Below are positions 9,835-60,649 of a stretch of DNA of 64,000 nt, piece by piece; within the stretch, counting starts at the first letter, position 1; every line of letters starts with the position of its first letter. The DNA is from Naegleria gruberi (lineage: Eukaryota): NCBI GenBank assembly GCA_000004985.1, contig GG738907.1, one strand, 5' to 3'. Position numbers and translations under genes: made by a program. Under the pieces are notes generated by a model. That model searched no databases and was not told the origin of the DNA. It saw only the letters and a list, made by a program, of their open reading frames with translations.

Positions 9835-10188
9835 TTTGATGAATAAATTTGCTTAGGGTTTTTGTACAATTAGTTGTTTTGATTATTTTTTAGCTTGTTG
9901 TTTTCTGATGATGAAAAGTTCCAGCGTATTTTATTTAAAAATGCGCAGCAAGTTAATTTCTTGTGAAAATTGGAAGAGAGTAAAAACTGGAACTTGAGAA
10001 TCAAAAACCGCCAAAACAAAAAATACATGATAAAGTAGAAGAAGAAACAAATTGAATTTAATAAGAGGGATATGTGATAATATACTTTGAGATGGTTATT
10101 GGTTGGATTGAATTTAAAATGATATCAAAAAATGCAAAGACATCATCAACAGCTTGTTGATTCAGAAGTAAAATCATCAACAGCAGTG

Positions 10189-10255
10189 ATGAAGCCTTCT
10201 CTTTTATCGGAGCATGTTAGAACATCTTCTTCAACAAGAAATGATTATATTGATA
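10189..10255 (+). CDS. divergent TCP-1/CCT-like group II chaperonin paralog, exon 1
   Basis: ATG followed by a GTATGT donor at 10256. The spliced product continues RNDYIDN|IQACIDVGEKLKSLLGPKALENLIVD, which resembles the CCT N-terminus. Confidence 0.6.
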
Positions 10256-10309
10256 GTATGTTTTCAATGATGATAGAGGAATAATAGAAAATTATTATCC
10301 ATTAAATAG

Positions 10310-10446
10310 ATATTCAAGCCTGTATTGATGTTGGAGAAAAATTGAAAAGTCTTCTTGGTCCTAAAGCTTTGGAAAATTTAATTGTGGATAGGGAGAGTGG
10401 AGAAATAATTATTACTAATGATGGTGCAACAGCTATTGAATATATG
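10310..10446 (+). CDS. CCT-like chaperonin, exon 2
   Basis: Bounded by acceptor AAATAG and donor GTAAGG. It encodes LGPKALENLIVDRESGEIIITNDGATAIEYM, matching the CCT equatorial-domain motif LGPKG...TNDGATIL. Confidence 0.7.
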
Positions 10447-10492
10447 GTAAGGATTAAAGTTCGAATTGCTATTATAATTTATGGATTCATAG

Positions 10493-10596
10493 AAATTTAA
10501 TAATCCTCTTGCACAATTATTTATTGAATTGAGTCAATCAGTGGATGATCAGATAGGTGATGGTACTACATCTGTGGTTGTATTGGCGTCTTCAAT
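10493..10596 (+). CDS. CCT-like chaperonin, exon 3
   Basis: Encodes KFNNPLAQLFIELSQSVDDQIGDGTTSVVVLASS, containing the GDGTTSVV ATP-binding motif. A GTATGT donor follows. Confidence 0.7.
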
Positions 10597-10636
10597 GTAT
10601 GTTGTAAAATTGTTGATTGGATTCTAATGATAATAG

Positions 10637-10796
10637 GTTGGAGCAATCTTTGAAACTCATTAGAGAAGGTGTTCATCCAATGAAAATTGTGAAATACTAT
10701 TCGATTTTTAATGACATTATTGAAAAACATTTGACTGAATATCAAGCATTAAAATTAGAATTGAACAATGAATCCAGTAAATCATATATAACACAG
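10637..10796 (+). CDS. CCT-like chaperonin, exon 4
   Basis: Encodes LEQSLKLIREGVHPMKIV..., matching the CCT GIHP block. A GTAAAT donor follows. Confidence 0.65.
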
Positions 10797-10842
10797 GTAA
10801 ATATTTCAATAATTTTGGATATTAATATATTGGATGACAAAG

Positions 10843-12117
10843 CTGGTCAAGACTACATTAAATTCTAAATTTTCTAGCACTTCGATTCCAAATCTATCCC
10901 ATATTGCTGTGGATTCAATGTATATAACAAAGGGAGAACGAAGATTTATCAAAATTATTAAGAGTGGAAAAGCAGAAAACTCTATAACTTTCAGAGGATC
11001 AAGTACGAATGAAACAAAAATTATATCTAATGAAATAATTGTAAATACCAATTTTATACACGAGAATATGAAGGAAAATGTAAATTTAAAGAATCAAAAA
11101 TTAGCACTTGTACTATTTGAGCTTGATAAGCCAAAAGCTCACAAGTCAAGGTTGGATGACATCAACTCTATTGATAATTCCCAAATTGATAGACTTATCA
11201 AAGAGGAAGAATCATATATTAAGAAAATAGTTGTTCAACTGAAAAAGCTAGGAGTAGGCTTGATTTGTGTTCAAGAAAATCTCTCTGCAGGGTTTCATGC
11301 AGGCGTTTCGGATACAGCAAAATTTTGGCTCCAAAAATCAAAAATCAATTGTATGATACCCATCTCAAAAGATGAAATGAATTTAATTGCAGATGCATTT
11401 CAGTTACATGCCATATCATCTATTGATCAGCTCAGTAATTTGGTAGAAAGTGGAACCACAGAAGAAAAAGGTAAATTTGTTCAATCAATAGAATATGTGA
11501 AGCATCTTAGTATTGGAAGACAATCATTTATATCGTTTGGACAAACCGCAGAACAATACCAAAATTATCCATGTGCAACTATTGTACTGAGTGCTCCAAC
11601 TCAAGTGGCTGTAGATGAGGTAGAGAGAGCACTACATGATGCACTTAGAGTAGTGGAAGTTTGTTTCAAACATCCTTCACTTGTACCTGGAGGTGGTGCA
11701 TGTGAAATGTCACTCTCGGCCTACATTCATTGTAATTTTCTTAATAGTACCACAAATAGTAATAAGTGCTCTCCCTTAGAAAAACTGATAATGGCTAGTT
11801 TTTCTAATGCTATTGAGGAAGTACCTCACATACTCAGTCAAGGATGTCAAAATCATGTTCCATCAGCACTTTTGAATGAATTGAGACATATTTATACAGA
11901 GTCAATATATCACAACCAACCAAGCCCAAATGTTGGCATCTATCTAAGCAATCAACAAGAGGAAACCCTTCACCCCATCCAAGACATGAAAGAACGGAAA
12001 GTTTTCGAATTACTTCACAGCAAAATCTCACAAATGAAAATGGCTCTGCAAACAGTTCAACGAATCCTCAAGATTAGAAAAGTTTTCATTTCCACTCCTC
12101 CAACCACTAATAAATAA
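10843..12117 (+). CDS. CCT-like chaperonin, exon 5 (to stop)
   Basis: Contains the chaperonin VPGGGACE motif. Exon phases are consistent across four introns of 40-54 nt. Confidence 0.7.
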   Translation: MVKTTLNSKFSSTSIPNLSHIAVDSMYITKGERRFIKIIKSGKAENSITFRGSSTNETKIISNEIIVNTNFIHENMKENVNLKNQKLALVLFELDKPKAHKSRLDDINSIDNSQIDRLIKEEESYIKKIVVQLKKLGVGLICVQENLSAGFHAGVSDTAKFWLQKSKINCMIPISKDEMNLIADAFQLHAISSIDQLSNLVESGTTEEKGKFVQSIEYVKHLSIGRQSFISFGQTAEQYQNYPCATIVLSAPTQVAVDEVERALHDALRVVEVCFKHPSLVPGGGACEMSLSAYIHCNFLNSTTNSNKCSPLEKLIMASFSNAIEEVPHILSQGCQNHVPSALLNELRHIYTESIYHNQPSPNVGIYLSNQQEETLHPIQDMKERKVFELLHSKISQMKMALQTVQRILKIRKVFISTPPTTNK

Positions 12118-12724: not shown

Positions 12725-13290
12725 TTACTCAAATCGATGGTCATAAATTAAAGTTCTAATAGAGTGAGGAGGAATAACCATTTCTGCAGCATAATCAATG
12801 CCAATACTCATATCAATCAATTTGAAAATTTGGCTTGTTTGTTCTTGATTCATGACAATAACAACCATCTTATTTTCTGGTGTGATAAAGCTGGTAACAA
12901 GTAAGGTATCGAGGGTATTTTCATGAGCAATTCTTACAGAACCTTCAGTCAAATACTTTGAAAAGTGACCCATGTAGTAATACATTGGTTGCAAATAGAT
13001 GGATTGAGTCTTATTGTTGGCAACAATGGCAGCATCACACCAATTTTGCATATGAGTTGGTCCACCAATTGGATCGAGAATGCAATTCCAATCAGTCCAA
13101 CCTTGAGCATAATTTTCCAAATCATTAATAATGTCAAATCCATAACTTTCACCTCTTCCCCAATCTCCAAAAGCAACACGGGGTCCTTGAGTTGCCTCAG
13201 TGCCAAGCAGAATCTTTTCAGGAGCAATATCATGGGCCATTGTCAAGTGTTCATATTGTCCATTGACATACCAGTGGAATGCAGTTCCAG
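12725..13290 (-). CDS. GH30 glucosylceramidase, exon 3 (to stop)
   Basis: Encodes GTAFHWYV...GWTDWNCILDPIGGP (GBA: IAVHWYLD...GWTDWNLALNPEGGP). Acceptor is GAAACAG. Confidence 0.75.
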
Positions 13291-13364
13291 CTGTTTCAAT
13301 AATGAGAAAAATTGTAAAACAATTATTTATATTAAGAGAAATTGAATAGAACATAACTACATAC

Positions 13365-13567
13365 CAACATATTTAGATGCTTCCTTATCAGCATAAATAA
13401 TCTCAGCCCACAAATGAACATGATCTCTATTGTGGTCATATATTAAAATGTTAACTTCTGGATGGTCCTGCTTAATTCTTGGTCCAAGATGTCTCTTAAT
13501 AAAATCTCTTTGGAATTCCGCAGTATAAACACAACTGTTATCCATTGAGAATATATTCCAATAAAAA
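13365..13567 (-). CDS. GH30 glucosylceramidase, exon 2
   Basis: Encodes YTAEFQRDFIKRHLGP (GBA: FTPEHQRDFIARDLGP). Bounded by acceptor TTTGAAG and donor GTATGT; the phases fit. Confidence 0.7.
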
Positions 13568-13645
13568 CTTCAAATTGAAATCAAAACTTACGCTTCATAT
13601 GGGCTTTAAATTGACAATTAATAAGAAAATTATTGAAATACTTAC

Positions 13646-14505
13646 GCAGCAAATTCAGGTTCATTTTGAACAGTCAATCCCCAGAATGGAACACCTAAAT
13701 TCTTATAAGCAGTAATATATTTTGAATAGTATAAGGCCCATGAATCCAAAATTCTAGTTTCATTAATCAATCCAATTGGTGTTGAACTTCCATTCATGTC
13801 ATTATTAATTTTCATCCATGCAGGAGGACTCCAAGGAGAAAGGAATAATTTCAATGGTTTTCCATTAAAAGTTCTAGTATTATTTACCACTCTAGAAACC
13901 AATGGATATTTGAATAATTTATCTCTATTAATATTGAAATATTTCAAATCATAATCTCCATTCACATCATCACAACTATAAGTTCCCAATGAAAAATCAC
14001 ATGAATTCATAGGAATTCTTCCAACAGTATAATTTAATCCCTTTGGTGACCAATACAAATCAAGTATTTGTCTCTTTACATCTTCATTCATTGTTGAAAA
14101 GACAAATGATGAAGCCTCAGTCATGGCACAACCAAATCCAATAATCTTTTGCTTTTTATCTTTAGGATTCAACAAGACAAGATTATCATTCATATTGGGA
14201 ATAGTCTTTTTAAAGGAAATTGAATCAATTGGTGTCAAACGATCATTGGTATTTTGTGCAGTTTGAATCACTTGAATAATTGGAAGGCTTTCTTGTTGTT
14301 TTTTAAAGATGGGAGAGGAAGCATGAATCAATGCTCCTCCTCCGTTCTTCTCCATCAGAGGAAATATATTGCTGGTGATTATCATGATGACCATCAGCAG
14401 CGTCATCATCATGTATCTATTTGAATGAATGCCTCTTTGGAGTGACAACATTTTTTTCTGTTGTTTTATTTCATGAATTGGTGCTAATAATAATCGGGTT
14501 ATCAT
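13646..14505 (-). CDS. glucosylceramidase-like glycoside hydrolase family 30, exon 1
   Basis: Contains GFGCAMTEASS (GBA: GFGGAMTDAA) and VQNEPEF (GBA: AENEPSAG). A GTAAGT donor follows. The true start may be the internal AAAAAAATG at ~14452. Confidence 0.75.
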
Positions 14506-17657: not shown

Positions 17658-17707
17658 GTAAGTAATAATCTCATTATACTTTTCATCACATGTTAATAAT
17701 TTGATAG

Positions 17708-17979: not shown

Positions 17980-18035
17980 GTAAGTGCAATGCATTCAAAT
18001 CACATCTTAACATTCCTTAATAATTATTCATTTAG

Positions 18036-22628: not shown

Positions 22629-22676
22629 GTAATTTATCAAAATTTAAATTAATCATCAATTTGTGATGATGAAAAG

Positions 22677-23059: not shown

Positions 23060-23126
23060 GTAAGTAATCACAAGTGAGATATTTCAATTAATTTTGATTT
23101 ATTATGTCAATGTCAATGAATAATAG

Positions 23127-24751: not shown

Positions 24752-25558
24752 ATGAACAACATTGTTACGAGAATCCTTCTTCTCTATCACATCATCTTCT
24801 TTTCATATCTTATCTCTCTATCAATACAACAAACAATGATATCGATTGAACCGAGACAGAATTATGCTCTTTCATCAAAGGCCTTTCGATACGGATACTT
24901 TTATATGAGTTATGAAAAATTGGCATCCTCACAGGCTGGATTTAGAGTTTCCAAGAATGTAAACAATCCCACTTCGTTGAATTTGGATTATTTACCAACA
25001 GGTGATGGATACAATTCAAATTTTGATGATAGCACGGCTGTTGTTAGCTCTATAATCAAGTTGATACAATTTTCAAATCCGATTGATTATTATTTTGTCC
25101 TGTTTAATCCATCATTGAGTGAGACTAGTAATGTGACGATTCATTCAAAAATTGTGGAGACCTATAGACCTTTTTCATTGTCGAGCATGTATTTTACGTA
25201 TTTGCAAAAAGGAGAAATTGAAAAGACATCATGTCCTTCAACTATTTCTCCGTGCATTGATATTACTAATTCAAAGTTTTATATTTCTGTTAATCCATCT
25301 GATATTTCATCAGCTCAGTACAAGAATAATTATCCAGTTAATTTGGAAATTTATGTGCAATATTCAGCAAGTGCTGTTAATTCAAATGGTGAATTGATTT
25401 TAGATGCCACTTCACCTTTTACCACTATCTCTTTGAAATCATCACAAGATTCTGCATCTATCACTGTACCAGTTCCACAAGGAGTTTTACAAGTTACAAA
25501 TGCAAAAGATGTAAAGCCGTACTTGTGGTTTAAATGTTTAGATGCTAATTATATGTAG
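24752..25558 (+). CDS. transmembrane Ser/Thr protein kinase, extracellular domain (signal peptide plus ~240 aa)
   Basis: Signal peptide plus an ectodomain ORF ending at TAG 25556-25558, immediately before a TM segment encoded in the +1 frame. Confidence 0.55.
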   Translation: MNNIVTRILLLYHIIFFSYLISLSIQQTMISIEPRQNYALSSKAFRYGYFYMSYEKLASSQAGFRVSKNVNNPTSLNLDYLPTGDGYNSNFDDSTAVVSSIIKLIQFSNPIDYYFVLFNPSLSETSNVTIHSKIVETYRPFSLSSMYFTYLQKGEIEKTSCPSTISPCIDITNSKFYISVNPSDISSAQYKNNYPVNLEIYVQYSASAVNSNGELILDATSPFTTISLKSSQDSASITVPVPQGVLQVTNAKDVKPYLWFKCLDANYM

Positions 25559-25560
25559 AG

Positions 25561-26544: not shown

Positions 26545-26589
26545 GTAAGTATATTCTTAATTGATTTACATATTAAGCAATTTGTTTAG

Positions 26590-42014: not shown

Positions 42015-42095
42015 CGTTGAGGATGGGATTCGAACCCACGCGGATTTCTCCACCAACTTAGCAGGCTGGCGCCTTAACCACTCGGCCACCTCAAC
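42015..42095 (-). tRNA. tRNA-Ser(GCU)
   Basis: Reverse complement reads GTTGAGGTGGCCGAGTGGTTAAGGCGCCAGCCTGCTAAGTTGGTGGAGAAATCCGCGTGGGTTCGAATCCCATCCTCAAC. Anticodon loop is CTGCTAA with a long variable arm; a downstream T-run is present. Confidence 0.85.
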
Positions 42096-42199
42096 TTCAC
42101 ATTATCGTGAATTCATTTTTTATGATCCTGATTTTCTTAATTTTGATTCATCAGCAATTATATGACTTGGAGAACAATGTGGAATTTTTAATTAGATAT

Positions 42200-45100
42200 T
42201 TAAAGTGGGAGTTCTTTTAACGAGTTGATAATAGTCTGGAAAGAAAACTTGTTTAAGGGAATGGAGAGCAAAATCAATTCCAAGACACGACACGACACAC
42301 AACAAGTGAATAAACCAGAATAGTGGAGATTTGGCAGATTCAAACCAAATCTGAAATAAAGGTGAAGTTTCACTAGCATATATCCAATTGAATCCATAGA
42401 AAGTGCCCAGACAAACAAGAACTGCAAAAAAGTGAAATGGTGTAACCTAACAAATTGAAACTCTAAAAAACTCTTCAAGTGCACCACAAGGAATGAGCAT
42501 GAGGTGACTAATACAACCTTAACCCAAAATCCATCATCTTTCCCATTGGTGAATAAACATGAATCAGTAGAATACATGCAAAGGAAGAAAATTATGGTCA
42601 TGTGAAGCATTCCACCACCAATCCACTTGACAAATGTGTACAGGTTAAAGATATTTTCCTTCCTCAGGAGTTTGTAGAGAATTGGTCCATGTTTTGCATC
42701 TTCCAAATACTTTTCTGAGATATCCTTCTCAAAAATTCCAAAAGACAGAGGATTCAATTGCATAAAGAATAGAGTTGAAAGAATGGTTACAAAATCCTCA
42801 TTCAATGATTGACCTGAAAATTGAACAAAGAATGCATAAATAATTTGAATGAAAACAATTCCTAAATTGATATAAATGTAATAATGAATGAAATCGGCAA
42901 TTCTTTTGTATGAATATCTTCCATGGACAACTAGTAACCTTTTAAGCATTCTAAATTTTGGAATGGCAAAGTCAGATGACATTTTGGCTTGATTACCTTC
43001 CTTTCCAATTATTCCAACTCCAACATTCGCTTGCTGAATCATTGGTACATCATTAATACCATCTCCAATAGAAAGAATTCTCTTTCCAAGTTTGATTTTT
43101 GCAAAATGTACAAGTTGTGATTTTTGCTTTGGTGTTGATCTGCAAAAAACAACTGTTTTGCACTTTGACACCAAGGATTCAAAGTTTCGGCTAGATGAAC
43201 AAAATGTAAATGCATGTCCATCTAAAACAAGTACAATCTCCTTTTGGTTTTCTGAAGAGAGACTTTGAATCAATGTTAAAATCTCACAAACTTTCACATC
43301 ACCCTCTTCGTTACTTGTTATGGAACCTAAATCTCCATCAAGAGTGAATACTTGAGAATGTTCATGTATTAAACCTGCAATACCAGCTATTTTAAATGCA
43401 GTCTCTCTTTTGTCTCCTGTCAACATCCAAACATGAATTCCTGCCTCAATTAAAAAGGATATTGTCTCTGGAACTTGATCTTGAAGTGTGTCTTCTACAG
43501 CAGTACAACCAACGATTTCCAGATCTTTTTCTAATTGGCTTTCGCAATTTTCAATAGCTTCTTTTCTAGATTTTGAAATGAATGACTGAACTGAATTGTA
43601 ATTGGTCAACCAATTGATGGCCTCATTGGAATCCACAAATTTGAAACAAAATAAGAGAGTTCTCAAACCCTCGCTTGCAAATTGTGAAGATTGCACATTA
43701 ATCTTTTCATAATTTTCCTCAAAGTTTTTGGTTGCAAGCAATGGATATAAAAATGAATCGGCACCTTTCGAAAAGCAAATAACAAGTTGACCACTTTCGT
43801 CTGGAGCTATCCCATATTTCTCAGTTGCAATATGATAATATATTGGGAAATCATTTAAAAACTCTAATGATAATTTAAAGAGTGTTGACATTCGTTTCCT
43901 CTTTGGTGAGAATGGAATTTCTGCAATTCTTTCAAAAGAATATTCCTTTCCAAAAATGGAGAGAATAGTTTTCTTTTCTGAGAAGTATTTCAACTCAAAC
44001 TGGTTGTTCATTGCCCCCAATACAAGAGCCACCTCATCAATACTCTCTCCCTCATAAAAAACCTCATCCTCATTATCTTTCCTTATCTTCCTCAATGAAA
44101 CATTGTGACACAAACTCATCGAAAGCAGAGTGTTCATTACCAAGAATAATTGATCTTGATAGCTGTTTTGTAGATTGTTTCTGACCCACTCACCAATACT
44201 TCCTCTTTCGAGCATGTCATCAAATATTAAATCTAATCCTGCACAACACTTTTTGAAAATCATTGAATTTTCAGTGAGCGTTCCTGTCTTGTCAGAGAAG
44301 ATCATGTCAATTTTTGCAAGATCACAATTCAAATCACTGGAAATGGCTACTGAAGAAACTAATTGTTTCTTTTCAGGTTCCTCAATCAGGTTTGAAAATG
44401 CAACTAGTTCATTATCCATTGAAATAAACCAAGCTTGAACCATTTTTACCAACTCGAACGAAACCAATAAAGAAACTGGAATCAAATGGGCAAACATAAT
44501 AATGTGAGATAAGAATGCCAACACAACAAAGGATCCATCCGATATTGTCCTCTCTCTATTTCCCAAATAAAATTCTGTTCGTTCCCTGAATTCATAATAA
44601 GATTTAACAGCAGTAAATGAGAGGCAACAAATCATTTGAATACCAAACATGATTCCCACCATAATGTTCAACATTTTGTTCACAAGACTGAATTTAACAC
44701 TAGTCCTATTCATATTTTTCAATGATTTTGTGTCCTTTCCAGTATAGATTACAATTCCATAGGCAATCTCTGTGGAGAGCTTACATCCTTTCAAGAGAAG
44801 ATTCTGATGAAAAAGTGGAACTTGTTCATGACCATCCACAGTAATTGATCCAATAAATTTGTTCAGAGATTCATTTGGTTCTTGACACTTAATAATGCCA
44901 CCCAACCCCTTCAAACTTGCCACATTATTAAAAAGTTTTGAGAGTGTTGGAGGAAATCTTGATTTGAGAGATGTTTCACCATCCAAATTAGAGGTCTCTA
45001 TTTTACAACATGAATCTTCCTGACTTGAACCAATGAGAATCAAGTCTGCTGGGAATATTTGTCCTTGATCAACTTGAACAATGTCACCAACTCTTACTTT

Positions 45101-45373
45101 ACCAGTTTCTATTTTAACAAATTGTTCTTCTCTCAAAACCAATGTGTTGGCTTGGTTGACCTTTCTATCATTTAAAAATCTGAGAAAATCTTCACCTCCC
45201 TCTCTCAGCATATTCACACATATAATGAAAATGACAGGGAGAACAATTAATGCAGGTGGAATTGAGGTCACTCCTGGAATTAGTGAAATAATCATTTGAA
45301 AAATAAAGTACAATGTTCCAACTCTTCTACATTGATGAAATAGGTTAAGAAATGGGAAATTCCACCACGTGTA
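42200..45373 (-). CDS. P4-type ATPase (phospholipid flippase), exon 2 (to stop)
   Basis: Carries SNLDGETSLK, DKTGTLTEN, TGDKRETAFKIA and GDGINDVPMIQQANVGVGI. The in-frame extension upstream of the listed ORF encodes YTWWNFPFLNLF. Confidence 0.85.
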   Translation of the reverse strand, partial: YTWWNFPFLNLFHQCRRVGTLYFIFQMIISLIPGVTSIPPALIVLPVIFIICVNMLREGGEDFLRFLNDRKVNQANTLVLREEQFVKIETGKVRVGDIVQVDQGQIFPADLILIGSSQEDSCCKIETSNLDGETSLKSRFPPTLSKLFNNVASLKGLGGIIKCQEPNESLNKFIGSITVDGHEQVPLFHQNLLLKGCKLSTEIAYGIVIYTGKDTKSLKNMNRTSVKFSLVNKMLNIMVGIMFGIQMICCLSFTAVKSYYEFRERTEFYLGNRERTISDGSFVVLAFLSHIIMFAHLIPVSLLVSFELVKMVQAWFISMDNELVAFSNLIEEPEKKQLVSSVAISSDLNCDLAKIDMIFSDKTGTLTENSMIFKKCCAGLDLIFDDMLERGSIGEWVRNNLQNSYQDQLFLVMNTLLSMSLCHNVSLRKIRKDNEDEVFYEGESIDEVALVLGAMNNQFELKYFSEKKTILSIFGKEYSFERIAEIPFSPKRKRMSTLFKLSLEFLNDFPIYYHIATEKYGIAPDESGQLVICFSKGADSFLYPLLATKNFEENYEKINVQSSQFASEGLRTLLFCFKFVDSNEAINWLTNYNSVQSFISKSRKEAIENCESQLEKDLEIVGCTAVEDTLQDQVPETISFLIEAGIHVWMLTGDKRETAFKIAGIAGLIHEHSQVFTLDGDLGSITSNEEGDVKVCEILTLIQSLSSENQKEIVLVLDGHAFTFCSSSRNFESLVSKCKTVVFCRSTPKQKSQLVHFAKIKLGKRILSIGDGINDVPMIQQANVGVGIIGKEGNQAKMSSDFAIPKFRMLKRLLVVHGRYSYKRIADFIHYYIYINLGIVFIQIIYAFFVQFSGQSLNEDFVTILSTLFFMQLNPLSFGIFEKDISEKYLEDAKHGPILYKLLRKENIFNLYTFVKWIGGGMLHMTIIFFLCMYSTDSCLFTNGKDDGFWVKVVLVTSCSFLVVHLKSFLEFQFVRLHHFTFLQFLFVWALSMDSIGYMLVKLHLYFRFGLNLPNLHYSGLFTCCVSCRVLELILLSIPLNKFSFQTIINSLKELPL

Positions 45374-45412
45374 CTTTGGTTCTGTTAGTGAAATTAACCT
45401 AATTTAACTTAC

Positions 45413-45706
45413 CTTTGTTGTTGAGATGTAATTGGATGGAAATCTGCTAGTTCTAATTCCACATAACCACGGTTTAGTTTGTTTTCTATTCCATTCCCAA
45501 TCATTGATCTTTACAATGTGGGTAGTATTCGAATCTTGTTCCTCTAATGCATTCCTTGTTGAAATGTTGGTCGAAATTAGCTCAATTGAAGAGGAGGTTG
45601 TCAAAGAGACATCTGAACGGTTAACAAGTGAATGATTAAATGATTGATAAAGTGGAAATGTTGCAGTTGAAATACTTGAGTTTTGTTTCTGGTTTTTTGT
45701 TGACAT
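45413..45706 (-). CDS. P4-type ATPase (flippase), exon 1
   Basis: Encodes an N-terminus ending ...GIRTSRFPSNYISTTK. A GTAAGT donor and a 39-nt intron to acceptor CCAAAG restore the conserved STTKY|TWWNF junction. Confidence 0.65.
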
Positions 45707-46055: not shown

Positions 46056-46126
46056 CTCGAGTGCCGGGAATTGAACCCGGGTCGCCAGAGTGACAGTCTG
46101 GAATGCTACCACTATACCACACCCGA
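46056..46126 (-). tRNA. tRNA-Asp(GUC)
   Basis: Reverse complement reads TCGGGTGTGGTATAGTGGTAGCATTCCAGACTGTCACTCTGGCGACCCGGGTTCAATTCCCGGCACTCGA(G). A downstream T-run is present. Confidence 0.85.
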
Positions 46127-58059: not shown

Positions 58060-58105
58060 CTAAAATAAAATTATTGAGCTAATTTGAAATAATTAAAAAA
58101 CATAC

Positions 58106-58803: not shown

Positions 58804-58853
58804 CTATTAGATTCAACAATATTAACAATCGGAATGTTAGTATAATTACATAC

Positions 58854-60577: not shown

Positions 60578-60649
60578 GGGGACCAGTGGGAATCGAACCC
60601 ACGGCCTCTCGCACCCAAAGCTATAATCATACCACTAGACCATGGTCCC
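60578..60649 (-). tRNA. tRNA-Pro(UGG)-like (anticodon stem has two A-G mismatches; possibly a pseudogene)
   Basis: Reverse complement reads GGGACCATGGTCTAGTGGTATGATTATAGCTTTGGGTGCGAGAGGCCGTGGGTTCGATTCCCACTGGTCCCC. It is near-identical to eukaryotic tRNA-Pro(UGG) except that 27-31 is ATAGC where the human tRNA-Pro(UGG) sequence, recalled from memory, has CUCGC. Confidence 0.6.

What the first reader, a model, noticed from the sequence alone, without database searches (positions are those of the whole stretch)
45374..45412. 39-nt spliceosomal intron in the flippase gene; generally tiny introns (39-56 nt common) across the window
Removing GTAAGT...CCAAAG (39 nt) restores the universally conserved P4-ATPase junction ...STTKY|TWWNF. 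Reading through gives a stop after 3 codons. Other well-supported introns here are 40, 45, 46, 46, 48, 50, 54 and 56 nt. This is a distinctive genome feature that helps place the organism and will mislead gene finders trained on longer introns.
Basis: partly seen in the sequence, partly recalled or inferred. Interest (0 to 1): 0.5.

Follow-up and report, generated by a model that had tools for sequence, protein, structure and literature searches.

The report
Unannotated 39-nt intron, Naegleria flippase
The 39-base segment is an ordinary but very short spliceosomal intron in a lipid-flippase gene of the amoeba Naegleria gruberi; its only news value is that the public gene model misses it and so lacks the first 124 amino acids.

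Summary
Confirmed, and ordinary. The window is Naegleria gruberi NEG-M: five proteins encoded here are 100% identical to NCBI entries.

The intron:
- It lies at 45374-45412 on the minus strand, with GTAAGT at the 5' end, a CTAAC branch motif 11 nt from the 3' end, and a terminal AG.
- If retained, it puts a TAA in frame at its third codon.
- Removing it joins exon 1 (45706-45413) to the long ORF and restores the invariant block TTK|YTWWNF.
- That block aligns without gaps to solved human and yeast P4-ATPases and lies inside the Pfam N-terminal flippase domain.
- N. lovaniensis (65 nt), N. fowleri (57 nt) and Willaertia magna (49 nt) have an intron at the same phase-0 K|Y boundary, with unrelated sequence.

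The general claim also holds. I found 16 introns of 39-74 nt (median 49) in seven genes. Ten are reproduced exactly by public N. gruberi protein models, so short introns are already part of the annotation.

The public flippase model XP_002671248.1 (NAEGRDRAFT_73741) does miss this intron. It starts at an internal Met inside TM1 and also reads through a 5-nt frameshift near the C-terminus.

No RNA evidence was available. This is a gene-model correction, not new biology.

The parts
45413..45706 (-). Flippase exon 1: ATG at 45706 to AAG (Lys98). Encodes MSTKNQ...FPSNYISTTK. Missing from the public model XP_002671248.1.
   Evidence: ORF list and translation. Pfam PF16209 covers aa 67-139 across the junction. 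Colinear with the N. lovaniensis orthologue P0002.
45374..45412 (-). 39-nt phase-0 GT-AG intron. 5' splice site GTAAGT at 45412-45407. CTAAC branch motif at 45388-45384, with the putative branch A at 45385, 11 nt from the 3' end. Unused AG at 45383-45382, only 2-3 nt after the branch A. 3' AG at 45375-45374. In-frame TAA at 45406-45404.
   Evidence: Sequence. Gapless alignment across K|Y to ATP11C and other solved P4-ATPases. 13-residue insert into an invariant block if unspliced. Intron at the same position in N. lovaniensis, N. fowleri and Willaertia magna.
42200..45373 (-). Flippase exon 2 as it reads in the assembly, starting YTWWNF... and including the stop codon. The public model starts at the internal Met at about 45295 (MIISLIPG).
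   Evidence: Pfam E1-E2_ATPase, Cation_ATPase, Hydrolase and PhoLip_ATPase_C.
42442..42451 (-). GTTAG|GTTAC, an apparent 5-nt tandem duplication. Here the homologous reading frame shifts. Deleting GTTAG gives a 1156-aa product colinear with the orthologue, ending with a TAA whose last base is at 42192.
   Evidence: tblastn of P0002, P0003 and P0004 changes frame here. Sequence and frames. Corrected product aligns to P0002 residues 17-1183.
10256..10309 (+). 54-nt intron in the CCT-like chaperonin gene NAEGRDRAFT_73721.
   Evidence: Spliced 599-aa product is exactly XP_002671169.1.
10447..10492 (+). 46-nt intron in the same gene.
10597..10636 (+). 40-nt intron in the same gene.
10797..10842 (+). 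46-nt intron in the same gene.
   Evidence: Pfam Cpn60_TCP1 spans the junction.
13604..13645 (-). 42-nt intron in the GH30 glucosylceramidase-like gene, upstream of the micro-exon.
   Evidence: Pfam Glyco_hydro_30 matches positions 1-348 of 348 in one stretch. Human GBA alignment. Orthologue sequences.
13592..13603 (-). 12-nt micro-exon CCCATATGAAGC, encoding (A)PYE(A).
   Evidence: Orthologues read AAPYEAC, AAPYESC and AAPWDAC at this point. Human GBA aligns PFQ here.
13535..13591 (-). 57-nt intron in the GH30 gene.
13291..13364 (-). 74-nt intron in the GH30 gene.
17658..17707 (+). 50-nt intron in NAEGRDRAFT_73724.
   Evidence: Spliced 481-aa product is exactly XP_002671170.1.
17980..18035 (+). 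56-nt intron in NAEGRDRAFT_73724.
22629..22676 (+). 48-nt intron in the METTL5-like methyltransferase gene NAEGRDRAFT_73728. It splits the motif LDLGIGT|G|MLG.
   Evidence: Spliced 236-aa product is exactly XP_002671173.1. Pfam methyltransferase matches span the junction.
23060..23126 (+). 67-nt intron in the same gene.
25511..25560 (+). 50-nt candidate intron (GTAAAG...AG) joining the extracellular and kinase parts of a receptor-like kinase. Weakly supported.
   Evidence: It is the best of five GT-AG options (50-95 nt, all ending at 25560) that join the two ORFs in phase 0 here. There is no homology across the junction, and the exact product is not in the public collection.
26545..26589 (+). 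45-nt intron in the kinase domain, at GTVLYMAP|EVF.
   Evidence: Pfam Pkinase matches positions 1-258 of 263 in one stretch across the junction.
58804..58853 (-). 50-nt intron in the ABCB half-transporter gene NAEGRDRAFT_81599.
   Evidence: Spliced 665-aa product is exactly XP_002671251.1.
58060..58105 (-). 46-nt intron in the same gene.

Best explanation
The segment 45374-45412 on the minus strand is a constitutive U2-type GT-AG spliceosomal intron. It is phase 0, lies between Lys98 and Tyr99, and is the only intron in a P4-ATPase (phospholipid flippase) gene of Naegleria gruberi, locus NAEGRDRAFT_73741.

Inferred mechanism: U1 and U6 snRNA pair with GTAAGT, and U2 pairs with CACTAAC. The AG that follows the branch A by only 2-3 nt is too close to be used, so the next AG, 11 nt downstream, serves as the 3' splice site.

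Shown here: splicing joins a 98-codon first exon to the 1057-codon second exon. This produces the complete N-terminal flippase domain and the start of TM1.

The intron belongs to a population of very short, AT-rich introns (39-74 nt, median 49) in this window. The public gene model misses exon 1 and this intron, and starts translation at an internal Met.
For: Splice signals and the in-frame TAA at the third codon are read directly from the sequence.

The spliced product has PF16209 (PhoLip_ATPase_N) over aa 67-139, E = 4.5e-17, spanning the junction.

The junction region aligns without gaps to human ATP11C (SRFPSNYISTTKYTWWNF against [18 protein letters not shown]). Stretches covering the same region also match ATP8B1, ATP8A1 and Drs2.

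In an alignment with five heterolobosean homologues, TTKYTWWNF is invariant, and the unspliced form inserts 13 residues in its middle.

An intron sits at exactly the same codon boundary in three relatives. N. lovaniensis has an annotated 65-nt intron. Willaertia magna has an annotated 49-nt intron. N. fowleri has a 57-nt intron inferred here. The intron sequences are unrelated apart from the splice signals.

The organism and the public model were identified by 100% identity and exact look-ups.

Ten other introns of 40-67 nt in the window are reproduced exactly by public protein models.
Against: There is no transcript evidence. The protein collections held no N. gruberi product that crosses the junction, and no RNA-seq could be searched.

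The same gene carries an apparent 5-nt frameshift near its C-terminus. The locus could therefore be a recent pseudogene or carry an assembly error, and its expression is not shown.

The assignments of branch point and 3' splice site are inferred from consensus rules only.
Confidence: 0.94

Rival explanations
1. The public model is right. Transcription or translation starts downstream, the protein begins at MIISLIPG (1031 aa), and the upstream ORF with the 39-nt segment is 5' leader or an unrelated short ORF.
For: The NCBI, UniProt and EukProt entries all carry this 1031-aa model. The spliced 1155-aa protein is not in the public collection.
Against: By comparison with the solved P4-ATPases, that model would start inside TM1, and it lacks PF16209, which the homologues with full-length models carry. 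The upstream ORF is 70-75% identical to the orthologue N-termini across the aligned 110-residue junction region and continues in frame after a canonical intron. The intron position is conserved in three other species.
Confidence: 0.03
2. The segment is an intron, but it is frequently retained as a regulated event. Retention brings in the TAA and gives a transcript that is either a target of nonsense-mediated decay or yields only the truncated protein.
For: The intron length is a multiple of 3 and the TAA lies at the third codon. Intron retention events are reported for N. gruberi: 122 introns in 113 genes (PMC6142364, supplementary table).
Against: The 5' splice site and branch motif are consensus-strength. 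Nothing specific points to regulation. An in-frame stop is expected by chance in an intron this AT-rich; all six 3n introns in the window have one.
Confidence: 0.1
3. The locus is a decaying pseudogene or contains assembly errors, and the 39-nt segment is an insertion or artefact rather than a functional intron.
For: A 5-nt GTTAG/GTTAC duplication shifts the frame 83 codons before the end of the ORF.
Against: There is otherwise a 1057-codon ORF with no stops, and all catalytic motifs are present (DKTGT, DGET, TGDKRET, GDGINDVPMIQ). The segment has complete splice signals and lies exactly where three other species have an intron. A random insertion would not do that.
Confidence: 0.02

Closest known systems
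Orthologous intron in the Naegleria lovaniensis flippase gene C9374_003842 (P0002; L001 1768-1832)
   Same: Same gene and same phase-0 boundary, TTK|YTWWNF. GT-AG, AT-rich and short.
   Different: It is 65 nt rather than 39 nt, has a GTTTGT donor and shares no sequence otherwise. The N. lovaniensis gene has two further introns (41 and 44 nt) that N. gruberi lacks. It is annotated, whereas the N. gruberi intron is not.
Annotated short introns of N. gruberi NEG-M (JGI/NCBI models, e.g. NAEGRDRAFT_73721, 73724, 73728 and 81599 in this window)
   Same: Same size class (40-67 nt), low GC (15-27%), GTAAGT/GTATGT-type donors, YTRAY branch-like motifs in most and a terminal AG.
   Different: At 39 nt this is the shortest in the window, and it is missing from the public model. 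Its CTAAC branch motif matches the consensus better than most of its neighbours do.
Short-intron classes of other eukaryotes: fission yeast and other fungi at about 40-60 nt, Paramecium at about 25 nt, Stentor at about 15 nt (own knowledge, not tested here)
   Same: A narrow distribution of short lengths, AT-rich, with strong splice signals. Introns whose length is a multiple of 3 carry in-frame stops.
   Different: Naegleria introns are not at the extreme end. Introns of 39-74 nt are within what a conventional spliceosome handles. The published mean for the N. gruberi annotation is 203 bp (PMC8296547), which implies a long tail that I did not see in this window.
P4-ATPase lipid flippases with solved structures (ATP11C 7bsp, ATP8B1 8ox4, ATP8A1 6k7g, Drs2 6roh)
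   Same: The host gene has the N- and C-terminal flippase domains and the DKTGT, DGET and GDGxNDxxM motifs.
   Different: It is only about 33-35% identical to animal flippases. In the assembly its last two transmembrane segments are out of frame.

Membership tests
U2-type GT-AG spliceosomal intron | GT at the 5' end and AG at the 3' end | tested here: met
   GTAAGT...AAAG.
U2-type GT-AG spliceosomal intron | Extended 5' splice-site consensus (GTAAGT / GTRWGT) | tested here: met
   6 of 6 match to GTAAGT. Seven of the 16 GTAAGT occurrences in the window (both strands) are at the donor sites identified here.
U2-type GT-AG spliceosomal intron | Branch-point motif (YTRAY, ideally CTAAC) a short distance upstream of the 3' AG | tested here: met
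   CACTAAC, with the branch A 11 nt from the 3' end. Actual use as a branch point is inferred.
U2-type GT-AG spliceosomal intron | Removal restores a continuous reading frame and homology; retention disrupts it | tested here: met
U2-type GT-AG spliceosomal intron | Position shared with introns in orthologues while the sequence and length are free to vary | tested here: met
   65 nt, 57 nt and 49 nt at the same K|Y boundary.
U2-type GT-AG spliceosomal intron | Excised from the mature mRNA | not testable with these tools
   No RNA-seq or cDNA was available. N. gruberi RNA-seq exists under PRJEB23822 (PMC6142364).
P4-ATPase (phospholipid flippase), host gene | P-type phosphorylation motif DKTGT, the P4-specific DGET motif in the A domain, and the TGDK and GDGxND motifs | tested here: met
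   FSDKTGTLT, NLDGETSLK, LTGDKRETA and IGDGINDVPMIQ are in the translation.
P4-ATPase (phospholipid flippase), host gene | PhoLip_ATPase_N and PhoLip_ATPase_C domains | tested here: met
   PF16209 at 62 bits and PF16212 at 159.7 bits, both above the curated cut-offs. PF16209 is present only when the intron is removed.
P4-ATPase (phospholipid flippase), host gene | Ten transmembrane segments, including an intact TM9-TM10 C-terminus | tested here: inconclusive
   The homologous frame changes at 42442-42451. It is intact only if 5 nt are removed.

The most novel reading that the evidence does not exclude
The real intron-length distribution of N. gruberi may be a tight peak at about 40-57 nt with a floor near 39 nt. 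In that case the published mean of 203 bp would come largely from mis-modelled long introns. A sizeable share of public NEG-M models would then be truncated or missing because tiny introns and micro-exons were overlooked. In this window that is 2-3 of 7 intron-containing genes: the flippase, the GH30 gene with its 12-nt micro-exon, and possibly the kinase.
Probability: 0.4. Interest if true: 0.25.

Novelty: already known. Interest (0 to 1): 0.1.

Why it matters
The practical value is a corrected gene model for NAEGRDRAFT_73741 (UniProt D2VXG7). The real protein most likely has 124 more N-terminal residues, covering the cytosolic N-terminus and the start of TM1, and a different C-terminal 83 residues.

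The finding also gives a small calibrated sample for re-annotating Naegleria genomes: 16 introns of 39-74 nt and one 12-nt micro-exon. That matters for comparative work that treats N. gruberi as a stand-in for ancestral eukaryotic gene content and intron positions.

It does not change what is known about splicing or about flippases.

Tried and rejected
1. I searched the 5.8-billion-protein collection with the spliced N-terminal 203 aa, hoping for transcript-derived fragments that cross the junction. Nothing scored, probably because of the word prefilter. This is uninformative.

2. I tried to fetch N. gruberi genomic context for P0001 and the paralogue P0004. They are not on record in the contig index, so I could not check the paralogue's intron or the official exon table.

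3. I compared counts of GTWWGT...YTRAY...AG and of GTAAGT with 100 first-order Markov simulations. There is no enrichment: 35 observed against 48 +/- 7 expected, and GTAAGT 16 against 23. Consensus counting cannot establish introns here.

4. All six 3n introns carry an in-frame stop when retained. I do not count this as evidence of selection, because at about 20% GC a stop is likely by chance in 13-19 codons.

5. I searched the literature for a median or mode of Naegleria intron length. I found only the mean (203 bp for N. gruberi, 126-144 bp for N. fowleri), a 30-bp minimum used for read mapping (PMC8296547), and a total of 10,688 introns in 15,709 genes (PMC6142364 supplement). The 2010 genome paper is not held.

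6. I looked for longer introns by scanning Pfam matches on 20 other long ORFs for domains cut off at ORF ends. None were found.

7. I considered a 5-nt 'GTTAG intron' at the C-terminal frameshift and rejected it. No spliceosome is known to remove 5 nt.

8. Several alternative models are not in the public collection: the kinase without its first exon, the GH30 gene without the micro-exon, and the GH30 gene with a different start. I could not establish how the public annotation treats those two genes.

Full report
**What is at the coordinates.** On the minus strand, 45412 to 45374 reads GTAAGTTAAATTAGGTTAATTTCACTAACAGAACCAAAG, 39 nt. Upstream, an ORF runs from the ATG at 45706 and ends ...RFPSNYISTTK. 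Downstream, a 1057-codon ORF begins YTWWNFPFLNLFHQCRR.... Because 39 is a multiple of 3, both are in the same frame. Reading through gives Val, Ser, then TAA. The gene is on the minus strand. The junction is K|Y rather than Y|T. The stop is the third codon.

**Organism.** The spliced product's best hit is a Naegleria gruberi 'predicted protein' at 100% identity. Exact look-ups place five proteins encoded in the window on one 275,174-bp NCBI contig of N. gruberi NEG-M: NAEGRDRAFT_73741, 73724, 81599, 73721 and 73728. The window's GC content of 31-37% fits the published 33% (PMC8296547).

**Is it an intron?** Four lines of evidence agree.

1. Signals. The donor is GTAAGT. The branch-like motif CACTAAC has its A 11 nt from the 3' end, and the segment ends in AG. 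The AG directly after the branch motif (45383-45382) is only 2-3 nt from the branch A, and using it would shift the frame. That the next AG is used is an inference from general splicing rules.

2. Domain content. Only the spliced product has the PhoLip_ATPase_N domain: PF16209, aa 67-139, E = 4.5e-17, spanning the junction at residues 98/99.

3. Homology. The junction region aligns without a gap to solved P4-ATPases, for example human ATP11C (...[24 protein letters not shown]...). With five heterolobosean homologues, the block T-T-K-Y-T-W-W-N-F is invariant, and the unspliced version inserts 13 residues in its middle.

4. Comparative position. The N. lovaniensis orthologue has an annotated 65-nt intron exactly between AAG (K) and TAC (Y) of KTTK|YTWWNF (L001 1768-1832). 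Willaertia magna has an annotated 49-nt intron at STTK|YTWWNF (L003 1298-1346). N. fowleri has a 57-nt GT...AG segment with in-frame stops at the same place (L002 2353-2409). The position and phase are conserved, while length and sequence are not. That is the signature of a real, old intron.

No transcript data could be consulted, so excision itself remains inferred.

**The public model.** XP_002671248.1 (UniProt D2VXG7, 1031 aa) begins MIISLIPGV..., an internal Met 124 residues into the spliced protein. It lacks PF16209. The spliced 1155-aa sequence is not in the public collection.

**Tiny introns across the window.** I joined adjacent same-strand ORFs through GT...AG segments of 200 nt or less and then tested the joins. 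This gave 16 introns in seven genes. Their lengths are 39, 40, 42, 45, 46, 46, 46, 48, 50, 50, 50, 54, 56, 57, 67 and 74 nt. The median is 49, the mean 50.6, and GC is 15-32%.

- Ten are validated in the strongest way available. The spliced products are residue-for-residue identical to public N. gruberi proteins: a CCT-like chaperonin with four introns, and NAEGRDRAFT_73724, a METTL5-like methyltransferase and an ABCB half-transporter with two each.
- Four more, besides the flippase intron itself, rest on single uninterrupted Pfam matches across the junctions. These are Pkinase positions 1-258 of 263 and Glyco_hydro_30 positions 1-348 of 348. For the GH30 gene there are also alignments to human glucocerebrosidase and to orthologues.
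- One, at 25511-25560, is weak.

Twenty other long ORFs show complete Pfam domains or none, and none shows a domain cut off at an ORF end. This fits the low intron density of the species, 10,688 introns in 15,709 genes (PMC6142364 supplement).

The published mean for the N. gruberi annotation is 203 bp (PMC8296547), so a long tail exists in the public models. Whether that tail is real could not be tested. The same paper set a 30-bp minimum intron length for N. fowleri read mapping, so the field already works with short Naegleria introns.

**Mechanism.** This is conventional U2-type splicing of a near-minimal intron. The signals are shown. The pairing of snRNAs and the choice of branch point and acceptor are inferred. 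If the intron is retained, translation stops after two extra residues, and only a downstream re-start could yield the truncated protein. All six introns whose length is a multiple of 3 carry an in-frame stop. With introns this AT-rich that is expected by chance, so I draw no conclusion from it.

**Comparison and novelty.** The feature is an ordinary member of a known class. Its orthologue is already annotated in N. lovaniensis, and introns of the same size are annotated throughout this window. The only new content is a correction to one public gene model, plus side observations. Interest is low.

**Side observations.**

- The flippase's homologous frame changes at GTTAG|GTTAC (42451-42442). 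Removing five bases gives a 1156-aa product that is colinear with the orthologue almost to its last residue. The public model instead reads 83 codons in the shifted frame.
- The GH30 gene contains a 12-nt micro-exon that orthologues strongly support. No 100%-identical N. gruberi entry appeared among its homologues.
- The N. fowleri flippase model is also truncated at the N-terminus.

Noticed in passing
window 42442-42451 (minus strand): An apparent 5-nt tandem duplication, GTTAG|GTTAC, shifts the flippase reading frame. Homologues align in frame -1 up to about 42434 and in frame -3 from about 42446 to 42213. Deleting GTTAG restores ...LEFQFVTPFHFF..., colinear with N. lovaniensis. The public model reads on in the wrong frame for 83 codons. 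That frame being open so long is unlikely by chance (off-frame stop density is 75 per 1057 codons, P about 0.002). Real allele, recent pseudogenisation or assembly error: undecided.
   Followed up: partly
window 13592-13603 (minus strand), flanked by introns 13604-13645 and 13535-13591: A 12-nt micro-exon (CCCATATGAAGC, encoding PYE plus split Ala codons) in a GH30 glucosylceramidase-like gene. Orthologues read EYAAPYEACVYT (N. lovaniensis), EYAAPYESCVYT (Willaertia) and EFAAPWDACCYT (N. fowleri). Human GBA aligns PFQ here.
   Followed up: yes
window 12725-14451 (minus strand): No 100%-identical N. gruberi NCBI protein appeared among the 120 best homologues of the GH30 gene. The only near-identical hit is an ENA fragment covering exon 1. 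The gene seems to be missing or badly modelled in the public N. gruberi protein set.
   Followed up: partly
L002 2146-3399 (N. fowleri VFQX01000009.1): The N. fowleri orthologue model FDP41_011364 (854 aa) also lacks its N-terminus. Homologous coding sequence lies upstream of the called start, but the frame changes at about 2596 and about 3040. These could be long-read indel errors or further introns.
   Followed up: partly
L001 1883-1923 and 4323-4366 (N. lovaniensis): The N. lovaniensis orthologue has two further introns, 41 nt after QCRR and 44 nt within GANDVPMIQ, that are absent from N. gruberi. The QCRR intron is also absent from N. fowleri. An ENA metagenomic homologue (P0003) appears to have an in-frame read-through at the GxND|VPMIQ position (...NDGKFILEYFLNHETVPMIQ...).
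   Followed up: no
window 42015-42095, 46056-46126 and 60578-60649 (all minus strand): Three tRNA genes: Ser-GCT, Asp-GTC and Pro-TGG. The first lies about 100 nt downstream of the flippase stop, and the second about 350 nt upstream of its ATG. The arrangement is very compact.
   Followed up: no
window 10132-12117 (plus strand): A divergent CCT/TCP-1-like chaperonin (599 aa, NAEGRDRAFT_73721) carries four tiny introns within its first 710 nt. It is the most intron-dense gene in the window.
   Followed up: partly
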